Assembly: GCA_035478775.1 (NCBI GenBank)
Contig: DATIJG010000008.1
Coordinates: 56,354 to 120,353, forward strand
Length of the DNA stretch: 64,000 nt
Direction: 5' to 3'
Origin: Candidatus Saccharimonadales bacterium
GTDB lineage: Bacteria > Patescibacteriota > Saccharimonadia > Saccharimonadales > UBA4665
Below the pieces are notes generated by a model. The model saw only the letters and a program-made list of their open reading frames with translations, ran no database searches and was not told the origin of the DNA. The position numbers and the translations under genes are program-made. Shown here one piece after another: positions 791-55,060 of the stretch (position 1 is the stretch's first letter; the number at the start of each line of letters is the position of its first letter).

Positions 791-932
791 ATAGTAACAG
801 ATGATCAGTTCAAACGTCGTCACTCTGCCGGTAGGCAGGAATCGCGGCGAATACGCCTCGATTGTACGCTAGCTTTATATTTTTTTTGAAAGAAAGGTAT
901 AATAGTAAAAGTAATAAAACGTACAGGGGGGT

Positions 933-1802
933 ATGATGAAACGATTGTTTGTATCAAGTGCATTGGCTTTCGGCATACTAGTATTCGCATTGGTGTTTGC
1001 TGTGAACCCGGTGTTCGCGGCGCAAAGCCAACGTAGCGACGTAAATAATACATATGCGGCACTGGGAGATTCCGTGGCCGCCGGTTTTGGTTTGAGGCAG
1101 AGCAGTAGCGACCCGGCCGATGTTGCATGTGCCCGGTCTACCCAATCCTACCCGCATGACGTTGCCGCTGCACTACAGATGCCGCTCGATCATTTGGCAT
1201 GCACAGGAGCTTCGACCAACCAAGGTTTATATGGCTCGCAGCAAGTAACACAGTCGTTGACGCTCGCACCCCAAATTGATCAGGCGTTCGCGCACGGTAC
1301 GCCGCGACTTATGACCATTACCATCGGAGCTAATGATGTTCAGTGGAATAACTTCATTACAAAATGCTACGTAACTGGTTGCGGATCAACTCAAGACAAC
1401 ATTCAGTTTGAGGCGTTACTGTTGCAGCTGCGTGTACGGCTTTTTGTTGCGCTGGCTGACATCCGAATGCATAGCGGTAATAACAGTACACCCCGAGTAC
1501 TATTGACCGGTTATTACGCAGTGGTGTCCAACGACCAACCGCATTGCTCTGATACCGACGGCTTGACGAGTGCGGCTATTTCTTGGATCAATGACAAAGA
1601 GGTTGAACTAAACAATGTTATACGTCAGGCGACGATACCGTTTCCTTTTGTGCAATTTTTGCCTGTAAACTTTACCGGCCATGAGTTTTGTTCTTATGAG
1701 CCGTGGGTGCAGGGTTTGACTGCTCCGGCTCCGTTTCACCCAATCGCTATCGGGCAAGCCGCTATCGCGCAAAGCATACTGTCTGCTTACGGCAAAAACT
1801 AG
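933..1802 (+). CDS. Secreted SGNH/GDSL-family hydrolase
   Basis: 289-aa ORF. N-terminal signal peptide (MMKRLFVSSALAFGILVFALVFAVNPVFA), block I motif ALGDSVAAGFG, G-rich SD upstream. Confidence 0.75.
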   Translation: MMKRLFVSSALAFGILVFALVFAVNPVFAAQSQRSDVNNTYAALGDSVAAGFGLRQSSSDPADVACARSTQSYPHDVAAALQMPLDHLACTGASTNQGLYGSQQVTQSLTLAPQIDQAFAHGTPRLMTITIGANDVQWNNFITKCYVTGCGSTQDNIQFEALLLQLRVRLFVALADIRMHSGNNSTPRVLLTGYYAVVSNDQPHCSDTDGLTSAAISWINDKEVELNNVIRQATIPFPFVQFLPVNFTGHEFCSYEPWVQGLTAPAPFHPIAIGQAAIAQSILSAYGKN

Positions 1803-1818
1803 TACGGCAGGCGAAACG

Positions 1819-4107
1819 TCATACCCGGCTTTTTCGCCCATCGCGTACGCGCCAGCTCTCGTCATGCATTTCATCACCATCAGGATAGAAGCGATTCTCG
1901 CCCGGCCACGGTGCGTTAAACGGGCGTAGGTAGGCAGGCGTAGGAAGCGCACTCAATACCATACTGAGCTGTTCCGGATTAGGGTAGAGTGAGATTGTCT
2001 CGACAATTTCGTCGAACAGACAGAACATTTCATCCGTCGAAGCATTGGGCATATCGAGTACGAGCATATCACTCGGTAAGTCAAAGAAATCAACCTTAAA
2101 CGTTTCGCGTGCCCACCCCCAAGGCGGCTTGTACGGTGGAGGCGACGCACTTGGGACCAACATACCCAAAACTGACGAAGCTTGAGATGCCAGCGCACGC
2201 ACCGCTTCTCCATTTACAAGCCAACATCCACCGGCCTTCGCAACTCTAAGCGGCACGTCGCGCATGGCCGGCTGACCTTCGTTGAGCAAGGCCATAATAA
2301 TGGCATCGCCTACGGACTCATGAAGCAAAGCATCATGCTCCATTACAGTCGACACCGCATTGGCTGCCGTCAACGGCGCACTGTAAAATCGAGCAGAGGG
2401 AAAAAGAGCTTGGTAAGTTCGCGCCGCAAGCTTGCCCTGGAGACTTCCTTTTTCAATAGCATCTACTATATTGCCTCTCTGGTGGTGTGGTGTTTCTCGC
2501 TCCCATTTCTTTGGGTCATTGCCAAACGGGAAAACTTCGTAATCCGGAGAGCAGCGTAACCAATCAACAGTGCATTCATCTAATTGAGACGTCACTTCTT
2601 CCATCCTTGCCCTGTCTCTGTGATATATCTGATCAATTAACCCTCTTAACGCAAGCGGACGTGGCGCACAGTCTGGTAAGGGTTGAATATGTCCAGGGTC
2701 AAGAAGTTGGATTTCTATATCCCGCTGCGCTTCAGGGGTCGTATGCGTAACAGTTGCAAGGGTAATCTTTTCAGCCTCGATTATTTCAGCCGGCACGAGT
2801 TCGCTGATATCATCTGGCATCTTTATCTCGCCAGTAAGGAGACCTTCTGGATAGCCCTTCGCCATTTCTACTGTCCGAGCGATGGCTGGCAAGAATTCCT
2901 TTTGGTCTGAACAAAGCGGACTAGTGTCGCCATAAGCATCAGCAAATTGTTCCGGCGAACTTCGCTTGGTAAGGTTTCTGAGCTTTTCTGGGTTGCCACG
3001 ATGGGGGTAGTAGTCTCCTCCGCAGGCCTCGACAAGCGGACATGTCCGGCATGCGACAGGCAGCGTTCCCCGACCGCCACGCTGTGCAATATAACCCGGG
3101 TCGTTAGCCAACACATAGTCGACCGAATGATCGTATGGGTTAAATGCCGTCATATGCACACCACGGGCACCTGGCGCAAGGGTATCAATACGGCCCCAAC
3201 CTTGAGGATGCATGAACATTTCCTGCCATGCTCTGCCGGCTACGTTTTGTTGTTCAGCCAAACTACCATTAAACACTGCTTCATAATCATCCCAGCGAGG
3301 CACGGCAAACGGACGATCATGATCCTCGGGGTGATACAGTACCCAGTCGCGACAGCGCTCATAGGCACGTATCTGCCACTGGCCAAGAGACATCACATTT
3401 AGGTCACCTTTCGCCTCATTATCCATTTTAATAAGAGACGGGAAAAGTGATATGCTGTGGGGCTTCAACGCAGCTAAATCTTCAACGACCTCTTCGGGGT
3501 TGTTGCGCGGGTCGATAACACCCAGGATACCCCATGTTAACCCGCTGCGGCGTAATATATTTGCCGTATGCACGACGCGGTCATACACATCCTCGCCCTT
3601 TCGGCCGCGGCGATGCCTATTGAACGCCTCTCTACCACCATCAATACTAACTCCGACACTTATATTATGCCTCTGTAACATTGGTATGTGCTTCTCGATA
3701 TCTATCGTGCCATTCGTTTGTAGCGAGATACCGAGTTCACAGCTAAGAAGCGTCCGCAACGCTGTCGCTGCCTCGTCTATTTTCTTCGGATAAAGGAGTG
3801 CCTCACCACCATGCATAACAGCACGTACGACACTTAACTTACGCGTTGCGGCATGCTCTGCAATTCGCTCGGCATAACGCACAGTCGTCTCGCTGTCCAT
3901 AACAGCCGGTTTAACGTCTGGGTCATAATCTTCAAAAACATAGCAGTAGTTACAACCGGAATTTTTGTCTGCGTCAGTAATCCGCAAAAGTTTCGGCTTT
4001 GGCTTCAGATTGCAAACTTCTGGGCCAAATTTATAAACAAATTCGTCAACAGGCAAGTCAGACGGCAGGATCAGAAAATTCGGTTGTGGTTGATTTTCGA
4101 CTGACAT
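1819..4107 (-). CDS. Radical SAM/SPASM peptide maturase, FxsB-like, with ~330-aa C-terminal extension
   Basis: 762-aa ORF. GCNYCYV (CxxC part of the rSAM motif), HGGEALL (GGE SAM motif), SPASM/twitch block CRTCPLVEACGG. Divergent from an FxSxx-COOH small ORF. Confidence 0.7.
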   Translation of the reverse strand: MSVENQPQPNFLILPSDLPVDEFVYKFGPEVCNLKPKPKLLRITDADKNSGCNYCYVFEDYDPDVKPAVMDSETTVRYAERIAEHAATRKLSVVRAVMHGGEALLYPKKIDEAATALRTLLSCELGISLQTNGTIDIEKHIPMLQRHNISVGVSIDGGREAFNRHRRGRKGEDVYDRVVHTANILRRSGLTWGILGVIDPRNNPEEVVEDLAALKPHSISLFPSLIKMDNEAKGDLNVMSLGQWQIRAYERCRDWVLYHPEDHDRPFAVPRWDDYEAVFNGSLAEQQNVAGRAWQEMFMHPQGWGRIDTLAPGARGVHMTAFNPYDHSVDYVLANDPGYIAQRGGRGTLPVACRTCPLVEACGGDYYPHRGNPEKLRNLTKRSSPEQFADAYGDTSPLCSDQKEFLPAIARTVEMAKGYPEGLLTGEIKMPDDISELVPAEIIEAEKITLATVTHTTPEAQRDIEIQLLDPGHIQPLPDCAPRPLALRGLIDQIYHRDRARMEEVTSQLDECTVDWLRCSPDYEVFPFGNDPKKWERETPHHQRGNIVDAIEKGSLQGKLAARTYQALFPSARFYSAPLTAANAVSTVMEHDALLHESVGDAIIMALLNEGQPAMRDVPLRVAKAGGCWLVNGEAVRALASQASSVLGMLVPSASPPPYKPPWGWARETFKVDFFDLPSDMLVLDMPNASTDEMFCLFDEIVETISLYPNPEQLSMVLSALPTPAYLRPFNAPWPGENRFYPDGDEMHDESWRVRDGRKSRV

Positions 4108-4141
4108 ATACTAGTTATAGTATAAGGTATGGAGGGATTCA

Positions 4142-4378
4142 ATGAGTGTAGCCGAAGCAAATATAGCAGTTTTACCGTATCCGGTAGAGGTAGTCGATAA
4201 TGGCGTGATCGATCAAGTTCCCGGTGCAGAAATAGAAATTTCTGTTCCAGAGAACGCCGTTGCCGGTGCTGTCTACGATGGCGTTAGGAGAAGGCTCGCC
4301 GAGAGGGAACGCAAGCCTATCCAGTCAGGCAATAGCAATACCAATGGACATGCTAACGCCTTCCAGAGTGCTGTTTAG
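4142..4378 (+). CDS. FxsA-like RiPP precursor peptide (C-terminus ...NAFQSAV)
   Basis: 78-aa ORF with SD GGAGGG 6 nt upstream. Acidic N-terminal region. The last five residues F-Q-S-A-V match the FxSxx-COOH signature. Start is 34 nt from the maturase start. Confidence 0.6.
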   Translation: MSVAEANIAVLPYPVEVVDNGVIDQVPGAEIEISVPENAVAGAVYDGVRRRLAERERKPIQSGNSNTNGHANAFQSAV

Positions 4379-4436
4379 GGGCGAAGCCGGAGTCATAGCA
4401 ACCTTTCTTGGCTGAACGATGGTATTTTTTGATAGT

Positions 4437-5711
4437 TTAATGAATAATGATTTTGCCGCCCCCGGACACAACAAAGCTGCCGCCGCCTATTTCTACTGTA
4501 ACCCCTTTCTGCTCACGCATACCGGTGTATGTGGCTACTTCTTCTAGACCTGTAACGATTGGCTCAATGCTTCCTTGGCCCATTAGTATGGCTTGCCATA
4601 CTTTTTGAGCTTTTATCCGTGCTTGGGTGATTAGTCTCTCTTCTTGGTTAAAGGCTGGCCCAAGTTCGCGCCTCAAGTTTTGAAAGTATTCAGTATCAGG
4701 TCCATCAACCAGTGCCTTATAAACAATCGACGTAGCCGGCACTTCAGAATATACAAATGTACCACTGTCGATAAGCCCTCTATCCAATGCCTCGCGGATA
4801 CTTAGGCCGTGCATAAGAGGCAAGGGCGCGCCCTCCTGCTTATTCTCCTTGGCTCGTATCATGCCGATAAGGTCTGTTAGGCCCCAAGCCCGGCGATTTG
4901 TGTAACTGTATGTGAAGAACCCTTTATCTTCTGGCGCAAAGGCTGCATGAGTTGACGCTATACCGGATAGCCGCAAAAGTGTGTTGTTTGCGTCTAGTTT
5001 GTACGCAGGCAAATCGCGCTGCACGCCCTTTATTGTTGCCGGCCCGGTGTAGGCTAGTCGGTTTAAGAAATCTTGACGCGCAACAGATACTGGATCAAGC
5101 AGATCGAATACACCTTCAGTAGTGCACAGATCAACACACGTTTGCACGAACGGGGCTCCAAGAAGAGCGTGGCGCTCTACGCTTAACGGTGACATGCGCC
5201 TACTGCTATAGTACGCATAATGTGATGCTTCTGCTTCAGGTCGGCTAACAAATAGTTCTCCCCCTAAAGGAATGGCAGTGTCGGCAATCAAATCTCGTGC
5301 CTCTTGCTCTGTAATGCACCTGGAGGCTTCCAGCAAATTAAGTTCAGTTTCCGGCGCAACATAGTGCGCTGCATCGCCTCGTCCGTCGGATGCTTCAGGG
5401 AAATAAGCCGTAATGCTATAGGGATTCTGCAAGCTCAGAATGTGAGCATCGGCGGCAACCTGTATGCCGTGCTCATCCGCCGTGTACCGAACAGGCCTTG
5501 TGGCATTACCCTTTATTAGCGCAGCATCGATATCATAATCAGCACGCTGTTGGAGTAGCACAAACGCACTCCTTCCCAATGCATCAGATAACAATACCGG
5601 ATCTGGCCATGTATTGGTTCCTCCAAGTTCACCAACTGAGAACGAAGAGATAGGGCCTAGAGCGGCTAAACCCGCCTCAAATTGTTCCTTACCATATGAA
5701 CCGTCTGTCAT
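4437..5711 (-). CDS. Hypothetical protein (424 aa), no recognisable domain
   Basis: Long uninterrupted ORF, convergent with the FxsA-like ORF. C-terminus is Gly-rich (EIGGGSFVVSGGGKIIIH). Confidence 0.6.
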   Translation of the reverse strand: MTDGSYGKEQFEAGLAALGPISSFSVGELGGTNTWPDPVLLSDALGRSAFVLLQQRADYDIDAALIKGNATRPVRYTADEHGIQVAADAHILSLQNPYSITAYFPEASDGRGDAAHYVAPETELNLLEASRCITEQEARDLIADTAIPLGGELFVSRPEAEASHYAYYSSRRMSPLSVERHALLGAPFVQTCVDLCTTEGVFDLLDPVSVARQDFLNRLAYTGPATIKGVQRDLPAYKLDANNTLLRLSGIASTHAAFAPEDKGFFTYSYTNRRAWGLTDLIGMIRAKENKQEGAPLPLMHGLSIREALDRGLIDSGTFVYSEVPATSIVYKALVDGPDTEYFQNLRRELGPAFNQEERLITQARIKAQKVWQAILMGQGSIEPIVTGLEEVATYTGMREQKGVTVEIGGGSFVVSGGGKIIIH

Positions 5712-7627: not shown

Positions 7628-7843
7628 ACAATCGTAGCATACGCTATACGTCTTTTATGTGCAATATGTGCATATGGATATATAGACTTACTATTTCAAA
7701 GGAAAATCACAAAAGACGGCGGATATCGAACCACATTAGGATTAGCCTTTCATCGCATGCTGAAACGAGCAATATGATGAATTCTGGTTTGATTGGACCA
7801 GACGGCGAAATAGTAAACAAAATTGAACGCGAGGAAGGCAACT

Positions 7844-7900
7844 TGACAGTCCTAGCCGGACTTCTCTCGAACCGATAACAGGGATAGAATGAAGCCCAGG
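7844..7900 (-). repeat. tRNA-3'-end-like repeat, copy B
   Basis: TTGACAGTCCTAGCCGGACTTCTCTCGAACCGATAACAGGG...GAAGCCCAGG. Aligns with copies at 9206.. and 23110... Hairpin AGTCC-TAGCC-GGACT. Confidence 0.6.
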
Positions 7901-9154: not shown

Positions 9155-9262
9155 AATCCGAGTATTTTTCAACTCGGATTTGAGGCGTGACCTATGTTAT
9201 TCGTTTTGGCAGCCCTGGCTGGGCTTTTCTCGAACCGATAACGGCGGGAGAGTGAAGCCAGG
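9155..9262 (-). repeat. tRNA-Trp 3'-end-like repeat, copy C (hairpin + 32-nt flank block + TGGCAG + T-arm-like part)
   Basis: 9171..9202 matches 28399..28430 at 30/32 nt. It is followed by TGGCAGCCCTGGCTGGGCTTTTCTCGAACCGATAACGG. The stem AGCCC/GGGCT covaries with AGTCC/GGACT in other copies. Confidence 0.7.
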
Positions 9263-23089: not shown

Positions 23090-23151
23090 TTTTCGTATCT
23101 GTTACTAAACTTGGCAGTCCTAGCAGGACTTCTCTCGAACCTTTAACAAAG
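23090..23151 (-). repeat. tRNA-3'-end-like repeat, copy E
   Basis: TTTCGTATCTGTTACTAAACTTGGCAGTCCTAGCAGGACTTCTCTCGAACCTTTAACAAAG. Hairpin AGTCC-TAGCA-GGACT. Confidence 0.6.
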
Positions 23152-54695: not shown

Positions 54696-54724
54696 TTGAC
54701 ATTTTAAGTGCATTCGCGTAGAAT
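54696..54724 (+). promoter_or_regulatory. Sigma70-type promoter for rplJL
   Basis: TTGACA (54696..54701), 17-nt spacer, TAGAAT (54719..54724). Confidence 0.6.
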
Positions 54725-55060
54725 AACAGGGAACATCACCGAAGACAGTAGCAGCATAAAAAGCTTAATTGGCTACCGAGGCATGAATTCAAACAAATAT
54801 TTTGTTTATTTGGCTGAGTCTTTGGTAATGCGAGAACCAAAGACTTTTTATTTGTCTTTAGTAATCCGTTCATTAACAACTTGGCCGAAGAAAAATTTGC
54901 ATTATTGAAAGTACTTTTTTATTTCAGTTCAAGGCACATCGGAAGCGCAAAGTATGTTATGCAAAAACATACTTTGCGACCCGAGAAGTGCCGCGAAGTG
55001 TAAACTAAAGGTACGACCTCCTGCAACCAATTCAAAAACAGTAAACAAGGGACACGGCTT
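54725..55060 (+). promoter_or_regulatory. Long structured rplJ 5' leader (candidate L10 leader with attenuator hairpin)
   Basis: About 335-nt untranslated leader. Hairpin AGTCTTTGG/CCAAAGACT plus a T-run at 54817..54853. 13-bp perfect stem CGCAAAGTATGTT/AACATACTTTGCG at 54946..54978, enclosed by GGCAC/GTGCC. Confidence 0.5.

What the first reader, a model, noticed from the sequence alone, without database searches (positions are those of the whole stretch)
1819..5711. FxsA/FxsB-type radical SAM RiPP locus with a non-canonical Fe-S motif, in an unexpected genomic background
The 78-aa ORF 4142..4378 ends ...HANAFQSAV-stop, which is the FxSxx-COOH signature of FxsA-type (cyclophane/triceptide) precursors.

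Its start is 34 nt from the divergent start of a 762-aa protein. That protein has GCNYCYV, the GGE motif HGGEALL and a SPASM/twitch block CRTCPLVEACGG, followed by about 330 aa of unknown function.

Unusual features:
- The canonical first Cys of CX3CX2C is Lys48 (K48-NSG-C52-NY-C55). The nearest upstream Cys is C32, which would give CX19CX2C.
- As far as I know, Fxs loci are described mainly in actinobacteria. The core genes in this window look like a reduced CPR-type genome.
- The locus lies at the far end of the tRNA-Trp-associated accessory mosaic.

The convergent 424-aa orphan (4437..5711) has its own extended -10 promoter inside a palindrome and may or may not belong to the locus.
Basis: partly seen in the sequence, partly recalled or inferred. 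Interest (0 to 1): 0.7.

Follow-up and report, generated by a model that had tools for sequence, protein, structure and literature searches.

The report
FxS cyclophane peptide module in Saccharimonadales
A tiny-genome Saccharimonadales (CPR) bacterium carries a two-gene module, a small peptide with a conserved Phe-x-Ser motif and a radical SAM enzyme, that most likely makes a ring-linked peptide like those of actinobacteria, using an enzyme with a stretched iron-sulfur loop and a tail domain of unknown fold.

Summary
ORFs, motifs and the 34-nt divergent spacing are as stated. The contig is from a Candidatus Saccharimonadales MAG.

- **Enzyme.** The 762-aa protein scores best against FxsB (TIGR04269, E 3.7e-46). 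At 157.8 bits it is below the curated cutoff of 370. Its model superposes on the cyclophane synthase ChlB (TM 0.87).
- **Fe-S motif.** Lys48 is not a substitution. A 16-36 residue insertion splits the motif into CX19-39CX2C. C32, C52 and C55 are invariant in 10 clade members and 24 FxsB proteins. This part is under strong purifying selection (dN/dS 0.04-0.06).
- **Tail domain.** The HExxH hydroxylase domain of actinobacterial FxsB is absent. A ~290-aa domain takes its place. It has no solved structural relative and only 17 hits (two of them spurious repeat proteins) among 1.84 billion representative proteins.
- **Peptide.** All ten related loci carry a divergent small ORF with N-x(5-9)-[AS]-F-x-[SA]. 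The tail after the motif varies from 1 to 12 residues, so FxSxx-COOH is not general. The FxsA model does not match.
- **Not part of the module.** The 424-aa orphan and the GDSL lipase are not conserved neighbours.

Verdict: a new variant of the triceptide (Phe-Ser cyclophane) RiPP system, moderately interesting. Chemistry, cluster binding and horizontal origin are untested.

The parts
1819..4107 (-). 762-aa FxsB-like radical SAM/SPASM peptide maturase fused to a C-terminal domain of unknown fold
   Evidence: ORF. NCBIfam TIGR04269 FxsB E 3.7e-46, 157.8 bits, and PF04055. AF2 model pLDDT 82.7. Foldseek best hit ChlB 9gmc, E 3e-22, TMt 0.87.
3943..4014 (-). Radical SAM cluster loop, C32-N-L-[16-aa insertion]-G-C52-N-Y-C55 (CX19CX2C)
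   Evidence: C32, C52 and C55 are invariant in 10/10 clade members and 24/24 FxsB proteins. Spacing in the clade is CX19 to CX39. dN/dS 0.04 against the 82%-identical homolog. The insert has low pLDDT, 59-70.
2878..4050 (-). Radical SAM core plus SPASM/twitch-like region (residues about 20-410), including the GGE motif H99-E102
   Evidence: Profile match residues 49-374. Superposition on ChlB and anSME. dN/dS 0.06.
2911..3051 (-). Auxiliary-cluster cysteines C353-x2-C356-x5-C362 ... C399
   Evidence: All four Cys are conserved in 10/10 clade members and 24/24 FxsB proteins. No other conserved Cys in this region.
2698..2877 (-). Linker (residues 411-470), partly disordered
   Evidence: pLDDT below 50 for residues 436-463. 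dN/dS 0.23.
1858..2697 (-). C-terminal alpha/beta domain of unknown fold (residues about 471-750). Motifs D-A-I-[IV]-x-A-L, G-x-[YF]-W, D-L-P-x-D-x-L-V and P-[FL]-x-G-x-W-P. It occupies the place of the HExxH domain of actinobacterial FxsB.
   Evidence: Only 17 hits among 1.84e9 representatives, two of them (P0025, P0030) repeat proteins I judge spurious. No similarity to the FxsB HExxH domain. AF2 pTM 0.79. No Foldseek hit in PDB or BFVD. Profile finds no solved structure, while the control FxsB C-terminus does. dN/dS 0.40.
4108..4141 (.). 34-nt divergent control region. Strong Shine-Dalgarno GGAGGG (4131..4136, + strand) for the peptide. AT-rich -10-like boxes lie 6-9 nt before the maturase ATG, and the maturase has no Shine-Dalgarno.
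   Evidence: Layout is conserved in all ten loci, with spacing 31-37 nt, 50 nt in L093, and about 32 nt in L008 after correcting a mis-called start. Promoter function is inferred, not shown.
4142..4378 (+). 78-aa precursor peptide (FxsA-like)
   Evidence: ORF. Orthologous divergent small ORFs in 10/10 loci. Alignment A6. dN/dS 0.67.
4343..4375 (+). Predicted core, N68-G-H-A-N-A-F74-Q-S76-A-V78. F74-x-S76 is the predicted cyclophane site.
   Evidence: N68 and F74 are invariant; A73 and S76 are 90% conserved. The C-terminus AFQSAV is identical to several Streptomyces FxsA tails. The FxsB-family enzyme MscB links Phe C4 to Ser C-beta (PMC11002830).

Best explanation
This is a minimal two-gene RiPP module of the triceptide (three-residue cyclophane) kind.

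**Proposed steps**
- The 78-aa peptide is translated from a strong Shine-Dalgarno site.
- Its acidic, fast-evolving N-terminal part, which contains a conserved S-x-V-x-R-R-A-like helix, acts as the leader. The C-terminal N-G-x3-A-F-Q-S-A-V is the core.
- In the divergently transcribed 762-aa enzyme, C32, C52 and C55 bind the radical SAM [4Fe-4S] cluster. The binding loop carries a 16-residue insertion, giving CX19CX2C, much like the extended loop of QueE (CX14CX2C).
- C353, C356, C362 and C399 bind one auxiliary cluster.
- Reductive cleavage of SAM gives a 5'-deoxyadenosyl radical. It abstracts H from C-beta of Ser76. The substrate radical adds to the ring of Phe74. Oxidation and deprotonation, probably through the auxiliary cluster, leave a Phe-Ser C-C cyclophane (-2 Da).
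- The C-terminal domain of unknown fold has no conserved metal-binding or catalytic motif. It evolves as fast as the peptide. It most likely binds the leader or a partner rather than catalysing a second reaction. No HExxH beta-hydroxylation step is expected.

**Shown:** homology, fold, conserved cysteines, conserved peptide motif and synteny, purifying selection.

**Inferred:** cluster ligation by C32, the chemistry, the role of the C-terminal domain, and the fate and biological role of the product.
For: - **Enzyme family and fold.** FxsB is the top NCBIfam hit, followed by YhhB, DynA, XyeB and AmcB, which NCBIfam also names peptide maturases (all but DynA explicitly as cyclophane-forming). 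The AF2 model (pLDDT 82.7) superposes on the multiple-cyclophane synthase ChlB with TMt 0.87 and rmsd 2.8. ChlB is also the best sequence hit among solved structures.
- **Cluster cysteines.** Seven Cys positions are conserved across 10 clade members and 24 FxsB proteins. The flanks EFVxK....C-N-[LM] and G-C-x-x-C-Y match the canonical motif on both sides of the insertion.
- **Selection.** dN/dS is 0.04 for the loop and 0.06 for the rSAM/SPASM region.
- **Precursor.** There is a divergent small ORF in 10 of 10 loci, with invariant N and F and 90% A-F and S. In 76 of 80 actinobacterial FxsB loci an ORF ends [AG]F[NQD]S[SA][ILV], and some end in AAFQSAV.
- **Minimal module.** Only the peptide-enzyme pair is conserved. 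Its neighbours differ: rpiB/rpe, glmS, enolase, uvrC.
- **Chemistry precedent.** The FxsB-family enzyme MscB forms a Phe C4 to Ser C-beta bond (PMC11002830).
- **Loop precedent.** QueE has CX14CX2C with one extended loop (PMC4389238).
Against: - The FxsB score is less than half the curated cutoff. FxsA, SPASM (PF13186) and HExxH models give no hit.
- The insert is modelled with low confidence. I could not read model coordinates, so the proximity of C32 to C52 and C55 is not verified.
- One clade member (P0004) has CX23CX3C, so the geometry is not uniform.
- One precursor has F-N-A instead of F-x-S.
- No protease, exporter or immunity gene is conserved with the pair, so maturation and release are unexplained.
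- The role of the C-terminal domain is a guess. The domain also occurs alone, fused to GNAT acetyltransferases and fused to another N-terminal region, without an obvious peptide nearby.
Confidence: 0.68

Rival explanations
1. The enzyme modifies the conserved core, but with different chemistry. Examples are a larger ring that uses the invariant Asn68, a C-O or C-N cross-link, epimerisation, or a second modification carried out by the C-terminal domain.
For: The clade is a long, separate branch with 32% mean identity to FxsB, and its score is below the FxsB cutoff. Asn68, 6 residues before Phe in most of these peptides, is invariant in the clade. I saw no equivalent conserved Asn in the actinobacterial tails printed. 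The C-terminal domain is new. Related enzymes such as DynA, DarE and XyeB make other cross-links.
Against: The conserved A-F-x-S is the same motif as in FxsA, for which Phe-Ser cyclophane formation is established in the FxsB family. The core has no Cys, which excludes thioether chemistry. The C-terminal domain has no conserved His, Cys or acidic cluster; its only invariant residues are G, D, P and P.
Confidence: 0.17
2. The enzyme is a catalytically dead or repurposed radical SAM relic, because the canonical CX3CX2C is disrupted. In that case the small ORF is not a substrate.
For: There is no CX3CX2C. In a gapless local alignment to ChlB, Lys48 falls on the first Cys. The insert is poorly modelled. 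CPR genomes are reduced, and gene decay would not be surprising.
Against: C32, C52, C55, the GGE motif and all four auxiliary Cys are invariant across a clade with only 47% mean identity. dN/dS is 0.04-0.06 on the catalytic part. The peptide motif and gene pairing are kept in ten loci at different genomic sites. Extended cluster loops work in QueE.
Confidence: 0.07
3. The 78-aa ORF is a small protein partner or regulator of the enzyme rather than a RiPP precursor. The enzyme would then act on another substrate.
For: The FxsA HMM does not hit. A 20-aa tail HMM has no discriminating power. Overall dN/dS is 0.67. The divergent orientation is atypical for RiPP precursors.
Against: Conservation is concentrated in a short C-terminal motif behind a variable acidic N-terminus. 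That is the leader-core pattern of RiPP precursors, which I state from general knowledge of RiPPs. The motif is the one modified by the nearest characterised family.
Confidence: 0.08

Closest known systems
FxsA/FxsB system of Actinomycetota (TIGR04268/TIGR04269; MscA/MscB of Micromonospora; triceptides)
   Same: It is the best-scoring enzyme family. It shares the seven conserved Cys positions, the GGE motif and the CX2CX5C...C auxiliary motif. The precursor has [AG]-F-x-S near the C-terminus, in some cases with the identical AFQSAV-COOH. The expected Phe-Ser cyclophane chemistry is the same.
   Different: The score is 157.8 bits against a cutoff of 370. The motif is CX19-39CX2C, whereas 80 of 80 actinobacterial loci have CX3CX2C. 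There is no HExxH domain, which is present in 57 of 80 actinobacterial ORFs; an unrelated domain of unknown fold takes its place. The precursor is divergent rather than co-directional. The tail after FxS varies from 1 to 12 residues. None of the conflict-system genes (vWA/TPR, TIR-AP-ATPase) described around actinobacterial FxSxx systems are present (PMC7159879). The host is a Saccharimonadales genome.
ChlB / ChlBH (radical SAM multiple cyclophane synthase; PDB 9gm3, 9gmc)
   Same: It is the best structural and sequence match among solved structures: Foldseek E 3e-22, TMt 0.87; phmmer E 1.4e-22. It is an rSAM/SPASM fold that acts on aromatic-x-x motifs.
   Different: ChlB is much closer to actinobacterial FxsB (E 2.4e-78) than to this protein. 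ChlB has the canonical CNLACDYC motif. ChlBH carries an alpha-KG HExxH hydroxylase domain. ChlB makes several cyclophanes per peptide.
YhhB (NF041707) and other 3-CyFEs (XyeB, GrrM/OscB, AmcB)
   Same: YhhB is the second-best profile (128 bits, E 3.6e-37) over the same 49-375 region. The enzyme class and three-residue motif logic are the same.
   Different: These enzymes act on Tyr, His or Trp motifs. All score below FxsB. None is known to me to have this C-terminal domain or this loop insertion (from memory).
QueE (7-carboxy-7-deazaguanine synthase) with CX14CX2C
   Same: It is a precedent for a working radical SAM cluster site in which a long loop is inserted between the first and second Cys (PMC4389238).
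   Different: It has an unrelated function and substrate, and it is not a peptide maturase.

Membership tests
FxsB (NCBIfam TIGR04269) | HMM score at or above the curated cutoff (370 bits) | tested here: not met
   157.8 bits, E 3.7e-46, residues 49-374 on profile positions 13-341 of 363. It is the best of 38 families, but below the cutoff.
FxsB (NCBIfam TIGR04269) | Canonical CX3CX2C radical SAM motif | tested here: not met
   The window protein has CX19CX2C and the clade has CX19-39. 80 of 80 actinobacterial FxsB loci have CX3CX2C. The three Cys themselves are conserved.
FxsB (NCBIfam TIGR04269) | GGE motif and the C-terminal CX2CX5C...C auxiliary-cluster cysteines | tested here: met
   H99-G-G-E102 is present. 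C353, C356, C362 and C399 are conserved in 10/10 clade members and 24/24 FxsB proteins.
FxsB (NCBIfam TIGR04269) | Fused or adjacent HExxH domain (TIGR04267, alpha-KG hydroxylase type) | tested here: not met
   No HExxH motif. No NCBIfam hit. hhalign probability 0.1. No Foldseek or profile match to solved HExxH domains, while the control FxsB C-terminus matches 22nu at E 1e-48.
FxsB (NCBIfam TIGR04269) | Encoded next to an FxS-motif precursor | tested here: met
   The 78-aa ORF starts 34 nt from the enzyme's start. This arrangement is conserved in 10/10 loci, but it is divergent rather than co-directional.
FxsA (NCBIfam TIGR04268, FxSxx-COOH protein) | HMM match | tested here: not met
   No NCBIfam family at E <= 1. 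My own 20-aa tail HMM built from 68 actinobacterial tails has no power.
FxsA (NCBIfam TIGR04268, FxSxx-COOH protein) | F-x-S followed by exactly two residues and the C-terminus | tested here: inconclusive
   Met in the window (FQSAV) and in L001 (FQSSL). L093 has FNAAV. The other seven clade peptides have tails of 1, 4, 4, 5, 8, 8 and 12 residues.
Triceptide / 3-residue cyclophane-forming enzyme systems | Precursor with a conserved aromatic-x-x motif, paired with an rSAM/SPASM enzyme of the ChlB-like fold | tested here: met
   F is invariant and S is 90% conserved. Foldseek to ChlB gives TMt 0.87.
Triceptide / 3-residue cyclophane-forming enzyme systems | Aromatic C(sp2) to C-beta(sp3) cross-link in the product | not testable with these tools
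   This needs co-expression with MS/MS and NMR.
SPASM domain (Pfam PF13186; seven-Cys, two auxiliary clusters) | Pfam SPASM match and seven conserved Cys | tested here: not met
   Only PF04055 hits at E <= 1. Only four Cys are conserved after the rSAM core, both here and in FxsB. That fits one fully Cys-ligated auxiliary cluster.

The most novel reading that the evidence does not exclude
Saccharimonadia are obligate epibionts, often of Actinomycetota (established knowledge, not tested here). The module may make a mimic of the host's own FxsA cyclophane peptide; the window peptide ends in the same AFQSAV as Streptomyces FxsA. In actinobacteria such peptides are wired to NTPase/TIR conflict systems (PMC7159879). 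The parasite could therefore use the mimic to manipulate host signalling or cell-death decisions. On this reading, the fast-evolving C-terminal domain of unknown fold and the variable Cys-loop insertion would be the parts that adapt to peptide or host.
Probability: 0.07. Interest if true: 0.85.

Novelty: new variant of a known kind. Interest (0 to 1): 0.55.

Why it matters
**Retention in a reduced genome.** Genomes of about 1 Mb discard most secondary metabolism. Yet this clade keeps a 2.5-kb peptide-maturase pair under purifying selection at many genomic positions. That suggests the product matters for the epibiotic lifestyle.

**For radical SAM enzymology.** The clade is a natural series of CX19 to CX39 insertions inside the cluster-binding loop of a peptide maturase. 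It includes one CX23CX3C variant.

**For RiPP biology.**
- It extends FxS-type triceptides to the candidate phyla radiation.
- It shows that the F-x-S core, not its distance from the C-terminus, is the conserved element.
- It reveals a very rare domain of unknown fold that replaces the HExxH hydroxylase and may be a new peptide-recognition module.

None of this overturns a current view, so the interest is moderate.

Tried and rejected
1. **Lys48 as a real Cys-to-Lys substitution.** Rejected. MAFFT alignments, using the conserved flanks, place C32 on the first Cys and show an insertion. Only the gapless phmmer alignment puts K48 there.
2. **C-terminal domain as a degenerate HExxH domain.** Rejected.
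3. **424-aa orphan as part of the locus.** Rejected. It has only two homologs. One of them lies on a contig with no rSAM gene. It is absent from the other nine loci. It has no family hit in NCBIfam, Pfam, PADLOC or PHROGs.
4. **GDSL lipase as part of the locus.** It is adjacent only in the window and in the 82%-identical relative.
5. **ABC/FtsX transporter at 9.3-12.3 kb as the exporter.** It is not conserved near the other loci.
6. **Defence-system link.** PADLOC gives only generic viperin-type rSAM similarity.
7. **Genome-collection scan.** It was saturated by actinobacterial FxsB and returned no clade member.
8. **Metagenome scans.** A degenerate DNA pattern for VIDP-x-NNPE[EQ] found only one known relative and one unrelated rSAM.
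9. **HMM of actinobacterial FxsA tails.** Too short to discriminate.
10. **Neighbour-joining tree to test horizontal transfer.** The clade is monophyletic in 59 of 60 bootstraps. Its position relative to FxsB is unresolved and is probably affected by long-branch attraction.
11. **Distance from C32 to C52 and C55 in the model.** Model coordinates are not exposed.
12. **Rfam.** Nothing in the locus.
13. **Key papers.** The FxsB and ChlB papers (pmid 36454686, 40354606, 39294420) are not in the held library.

Full report
**1. The observation**

- A 762-aa ORF lies at 1819..4107 (-).
- A 78-aa ORF lies at 4142..4378 (+) and ends ...SGNSNTNGHANAFQSAV.
- A 424-aa ORF lies at 4437..5711 (-).
- A GDSL/SGNH lipase lies at 933..1802 (+).

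The divergent start codons are 34 nt apart. In the large protein the numbering is right: C32, K48, C52, C55, HGGE at 99-102, and CRTCPLVEACGG from C353. The protein is 100% identical to an NCBI entry from a Candidatus Saccharimonadales MAG on a 430,644-bp contig. So the guess of a CPR-type genome is correct.

**2. The enzyme**

NCBIfam places it nearest to FxsB (TIGR04269: 157.8 bits, E 3.7e-46, residues 49-374). Next come YhhB (128 bits), DynA, anaerobic sulfatase maturase, XyeB and AmcB. The FxsB score is far below the curated cutoff of 370. Pfam sees only PF04055.

An AlphaFold2 model built on 42 sequences has mean pLDDT 82.7. Its N-terminal 410 residues superpose best on ChlB, a radical SAM multiple-cyclophane synthase (9gmc/9gm3: E 3e-22, TM 0.87 on the target, rmsd 2.8). 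The next best matches are anSME, CteB and SuiB. ChlB is also the best sequence hit among solved structures.

**3. The 'non-canonical Fe-S motif'**

A gapless local alignment does put K48 opposite the first Cys of ChlB's CNLACDYC. Multiple alignments give a different picture.
- The segment before C32 (E-F-V-x-K-x4-5-C-N-[LM]) is the normal beta1-loop-Cys1 segment of FxsB (x-F-V-L-K-V-H-S-R-C-[ND]-L).
- G-C52-x-x-C55-Y is the normal end of the motif.
- Between them lies an insertion.

C32, C52 and C55 are invariant in all 10 members of the Saccharimonadales-type clade and in 24 of 24 FxsB proteins. So are C353, C356, C362 and C399.

The Cys1-Cys2 spacing in the clade is 19 residues in five members, then 21, 23, 25, 29 and 39. 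One member (P0004, seen in two independent assemblies) also has CX3C instead of CX2C. All 80 actinobacterial FxsB loci I fetched have CX3CX2C.

The insert is modelled with low confidence (pLDDT 59-70). I could not read coordinates to measure Cys distances.

Against the 82%-identical homolog, dN/dS varies along the protein.

| Region | dN/dS |
|---|---|
| Cys loop plus insert | 0.04 |
| rSAM/SPASM region | 0.06 |
| Linker | 0.23 |
| C-terminal domain | 0.40 |

So the catalytic part is under strong constraint and is not a relic. An extended first loop has a working precedent in QueE, which has CX14CX2C (PMC4389238).

**4. The C-terminal 350 residues**

Actinobacterial FxsB proteins usually carry an HExxH domain. 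It is present in 57 of 80 ORFs here. That domain is now known to be an alpha-KG-dependent beta-hydroxylase (cited).

The window protein has no HExxH. Profile-profile comparison of the two kinds of C-terminus finds nothing (probability 0.1).

A profile of the clade's C-terminus, searched against 1.84 billion representative proteins, finds only 17 proteins.
- Seven are rSAM fusions: three of the six query-clade proteins plus four further ones (P0017, P0018, P0020, P0024). All have the expanded Cys loop.
- Four are stand-alone proteins of 276-296 aa.
- Two are fusions to GNAT acetyltransferases.
- Two are about 785-aa proteins with another N-terminal region. One of these (P0026, 788 aa) appears to be encoded directly downstream of a clade rSAM in L093; I matched it there by length only.
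- Two are repeat proteins that I judge spurious.

A domain-only model (pLDDT 77.8, pTM 0.79) has no Foldseek match in the PDB (best E 2.8) or in BFVD. As a control, the C-terminus of an actinobacterial FxsB does match solved HExxH-type structures (22nu at E 1e-48, ChlH 8s5f). The clade profile matches none.

Conserved positions are few and not catalytic-looking: G, D-L-P, P, and the motifs D-A-I-V-x-A-L, G-x-Y-W and P-L-x-G-x-W-P.

**5. The peptide**

Every related locus has a small ORF, divergent from the enzyme. The C-termini are:

| Locus | C-terminus |
|---|---|
| window | NTNGHANAFQSAV |
| L001 | NTNTAYDNAFQSSL |
| L005 | TTNGPQGFAFQSSDSE |
| L003 | NENGLEGSFQSGGQAVAPEASV |
| L007 | DTNGSSFAFASIVQPE |
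| L008 | DVNGAVPAFQSVTQTPESL |
| L090 | DVNGETFAFSSASQA |
| L091 | DLNLQASAFQSN |
| L093 | NPDGTGQAGEAAFNAAV |
| L094 | DPNGAVTAFDSAVPQLEPIDL |

In the alignment, one Asn and the Phe are invariant, and A-F and Ser are 90% conserved. The N-terminal two thirds are acidic and variable apart from an S-x-V-x-R-R-A-like stretch. Overall dN/dS is 0.67. That is the usual look of a leader-core precursor.

As a benchmark, 76 of 80 actinobacterial FxsB loci have an ORF ending F.S... Nearly all lie just upstream of FxsB on the same strand and end [AG]-F-[NQD]-S-[SA]-[ILV]. Among 68 distinct tails, 18 end VAAFNSSI and 5 end VAAFQSAV.

Two things follow.
- The window peptide has a genuine FxsA-type C-terminus.
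- Within the clade the F-x-S core is what is conserved, not the 'xx-COOH' position. The TIGR04268 model does not hit.

**6. Extent of the module**

Only the pair is conserved.
- In other genomes it sits between rpiB and rpe (L003, L005), beside glmS (L007, L090), after enolase (L091), beside uvrC (L094), or beside a PBP5/6-type carboxypeptidase (L008).
- At least the L001 and L003 lineages are also Saccharimonadales, judged from 90% protein clusters of their neighbours. One relative lies on a 1.10-Mb contig.
- The 424-aa orphan has two homologs. One is on a contig without the rSAM.
- The lipase is shared only with the closest relative. There the 3.5-kb block 876..4387 is 86% identical, has sharp ends, and is inverted relative to a flanking APH-like gene.

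No protease, transporter or immunity gene travels with the pair.

**7. Control region**

The 31-37 nt between the two start codons is conserved in layout.
- The peptide has a strong Shine-Dalgarno (GGAGGG or CCCC-rich complement) 5-8 nt upstream.
- The enzyme has none. It has a TATA[AC][CT]-like box 6-9 nt before a conserved AGTAT-ATG.

This suggests a leaderless or near-leaderless maturase mRNA and overlapping back-to-back promoters. That is inference only. Generic promoter and terminator scans of the region are at chance level.

**8. Mechanism proposed**

By homology with the FxsB family, the enzyme should use the C32/C52/C55 cluster to cleave SAM. It should then abstract H from C-beta of Ser76 and couple that carbon to the ring of Phe74, with the four-Cys auxiliary cluster taking the electron. 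The FxsB-family member MscB was shown to link Phe C4 to Ser C-beta (PMC11002830). NCBI names the family 'cyclophane-forming'.

No hydroxylation step is expected, because the HExxH domain is missing.

The C-terminal domain evolves about as fast as the peptide (dN/dS 0.40 against 0.67) and lacks catalytic signatures. I therefore favour a peptide- or partner-binding role, with low certainty.

**9. Origin**

In the genome collection, the 80 best relatives kept are all Actinomycetota at 26-37% identity. In a neighbour-joining tree the clade is monophyletic (59 of 60 bootstraps). It is a long branch whose position relative to FxsB is unresolved. Mean identity is 47% within the clade, 55% within FxsB and 32% between them.

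Transfer from actinobacterial hosts is attractive, because Saccharimonadia are often epibionts of Actinomycetota (established knowledge). It is not demonstrated. If it happened, it is old.

**10. Verdict**

It is wrong or unproven in several details: K48, strict FxSxx-COOH, family membership, the orphan gene, and horizontal transfer.

It is a new variant of a known RiPP system, with four differences from the known one:
- a split cluster motif;
- a rare domain of unknown fold in place of the hydroxylase;
- a divergent minimal gene pair;
- a CPR host.

Noticed in passing
window 4108-4141 and the first codons on either side; same region in L001, L003, L005, L007, L008, L090, L091, L093, L094: The divergent control region is conserved. 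The peptide has a strong Shine-Dalgarno. The maturase has none; it has a -10-like TATA[AC][CT] box 6-9 nt before a conserved AGTAT-ATG, which suggests a leaderless maturase mRNA and overlapping back-to-back promoters. Residues E4 and Q8 of the disordered maturase N-terminus are invariant within the six-member clade alignment A3, possibly because the peptide's promoter lies in those codons.
   Followed up: partly
window 7842-7880, 9206-9242, 23126-23147; L001 1512-1550 and 3462-3493: A hairpin-containing intergenic element of about 40 nt (GGCAGTCCTGGCTGGACTTCTCTCGAACCGATAAC) occurs three times in the window; none is expected by chance. Each copy lies 14-95 nt past the stop of a minus-strand gene. 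It is shared with the related genome. It may be a REP-like or 3'-end element.
   Followed up: partly
window 876-4387 versus L001 5709-9250: The lipase-maturase-peptide block is 86% identical between two Saccharimonadales genomes and has sharp boundaries. It is inverted relative to the flanking APH-like gene (window 1-828 matches L001 3501-4328). The genes on the peptide side differ: the 424-aa orphan here, an unrelated 321-aa gene there.
   Followed up: partly
L093 4001-6427 and 6447-8813: In one relative the maturase (CX39CX2C) is followed directly by a 788-aa protein. By its length this is probably P0026, a protein that carries a second copy of the C-terminal domain of unknown fold behind a different, unannotated N-terminal region. 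The precursor there ends AAFNAAV, with Ala in place of Ser.
   Followed up: partly
L003 6001-8352 and L004 848-3199 (protein P0004): This clade member has C-x23-C-T-Y-P-C, that is CX3C instead of CX2C at the end of the cluster motif. The same sequence appears in two independent assemblies, so it is unlikely to be a sequencing error.
   Followed up: no
window 9295-12317: A MacB-like ABC pair (773-aa FtsX-type permease and 233-aa ATPase) lies 5 kb from the module. It could export peptides, but it is not conserved near the other loci.
   Followed up: partly
It is a single consensus match of unknown significance.
   Followed up: partly
L097 1269-3173: A 634-aa rSAM with canonical CNLNCDYC, 35% identical to FxsB, sits in an AT-rich metagenome contig beside large coiled-coil/P-loop proteins. 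It is another uncharacterised FxsB-like lineage with yet another C-terminal extension.
   Followed up: no
window 54721-54859: An ordinary ribosomal protein L10 leader (Rfam RF00557, 74.9 bits), which marks the core-gene part of the window.
   Followed up: no
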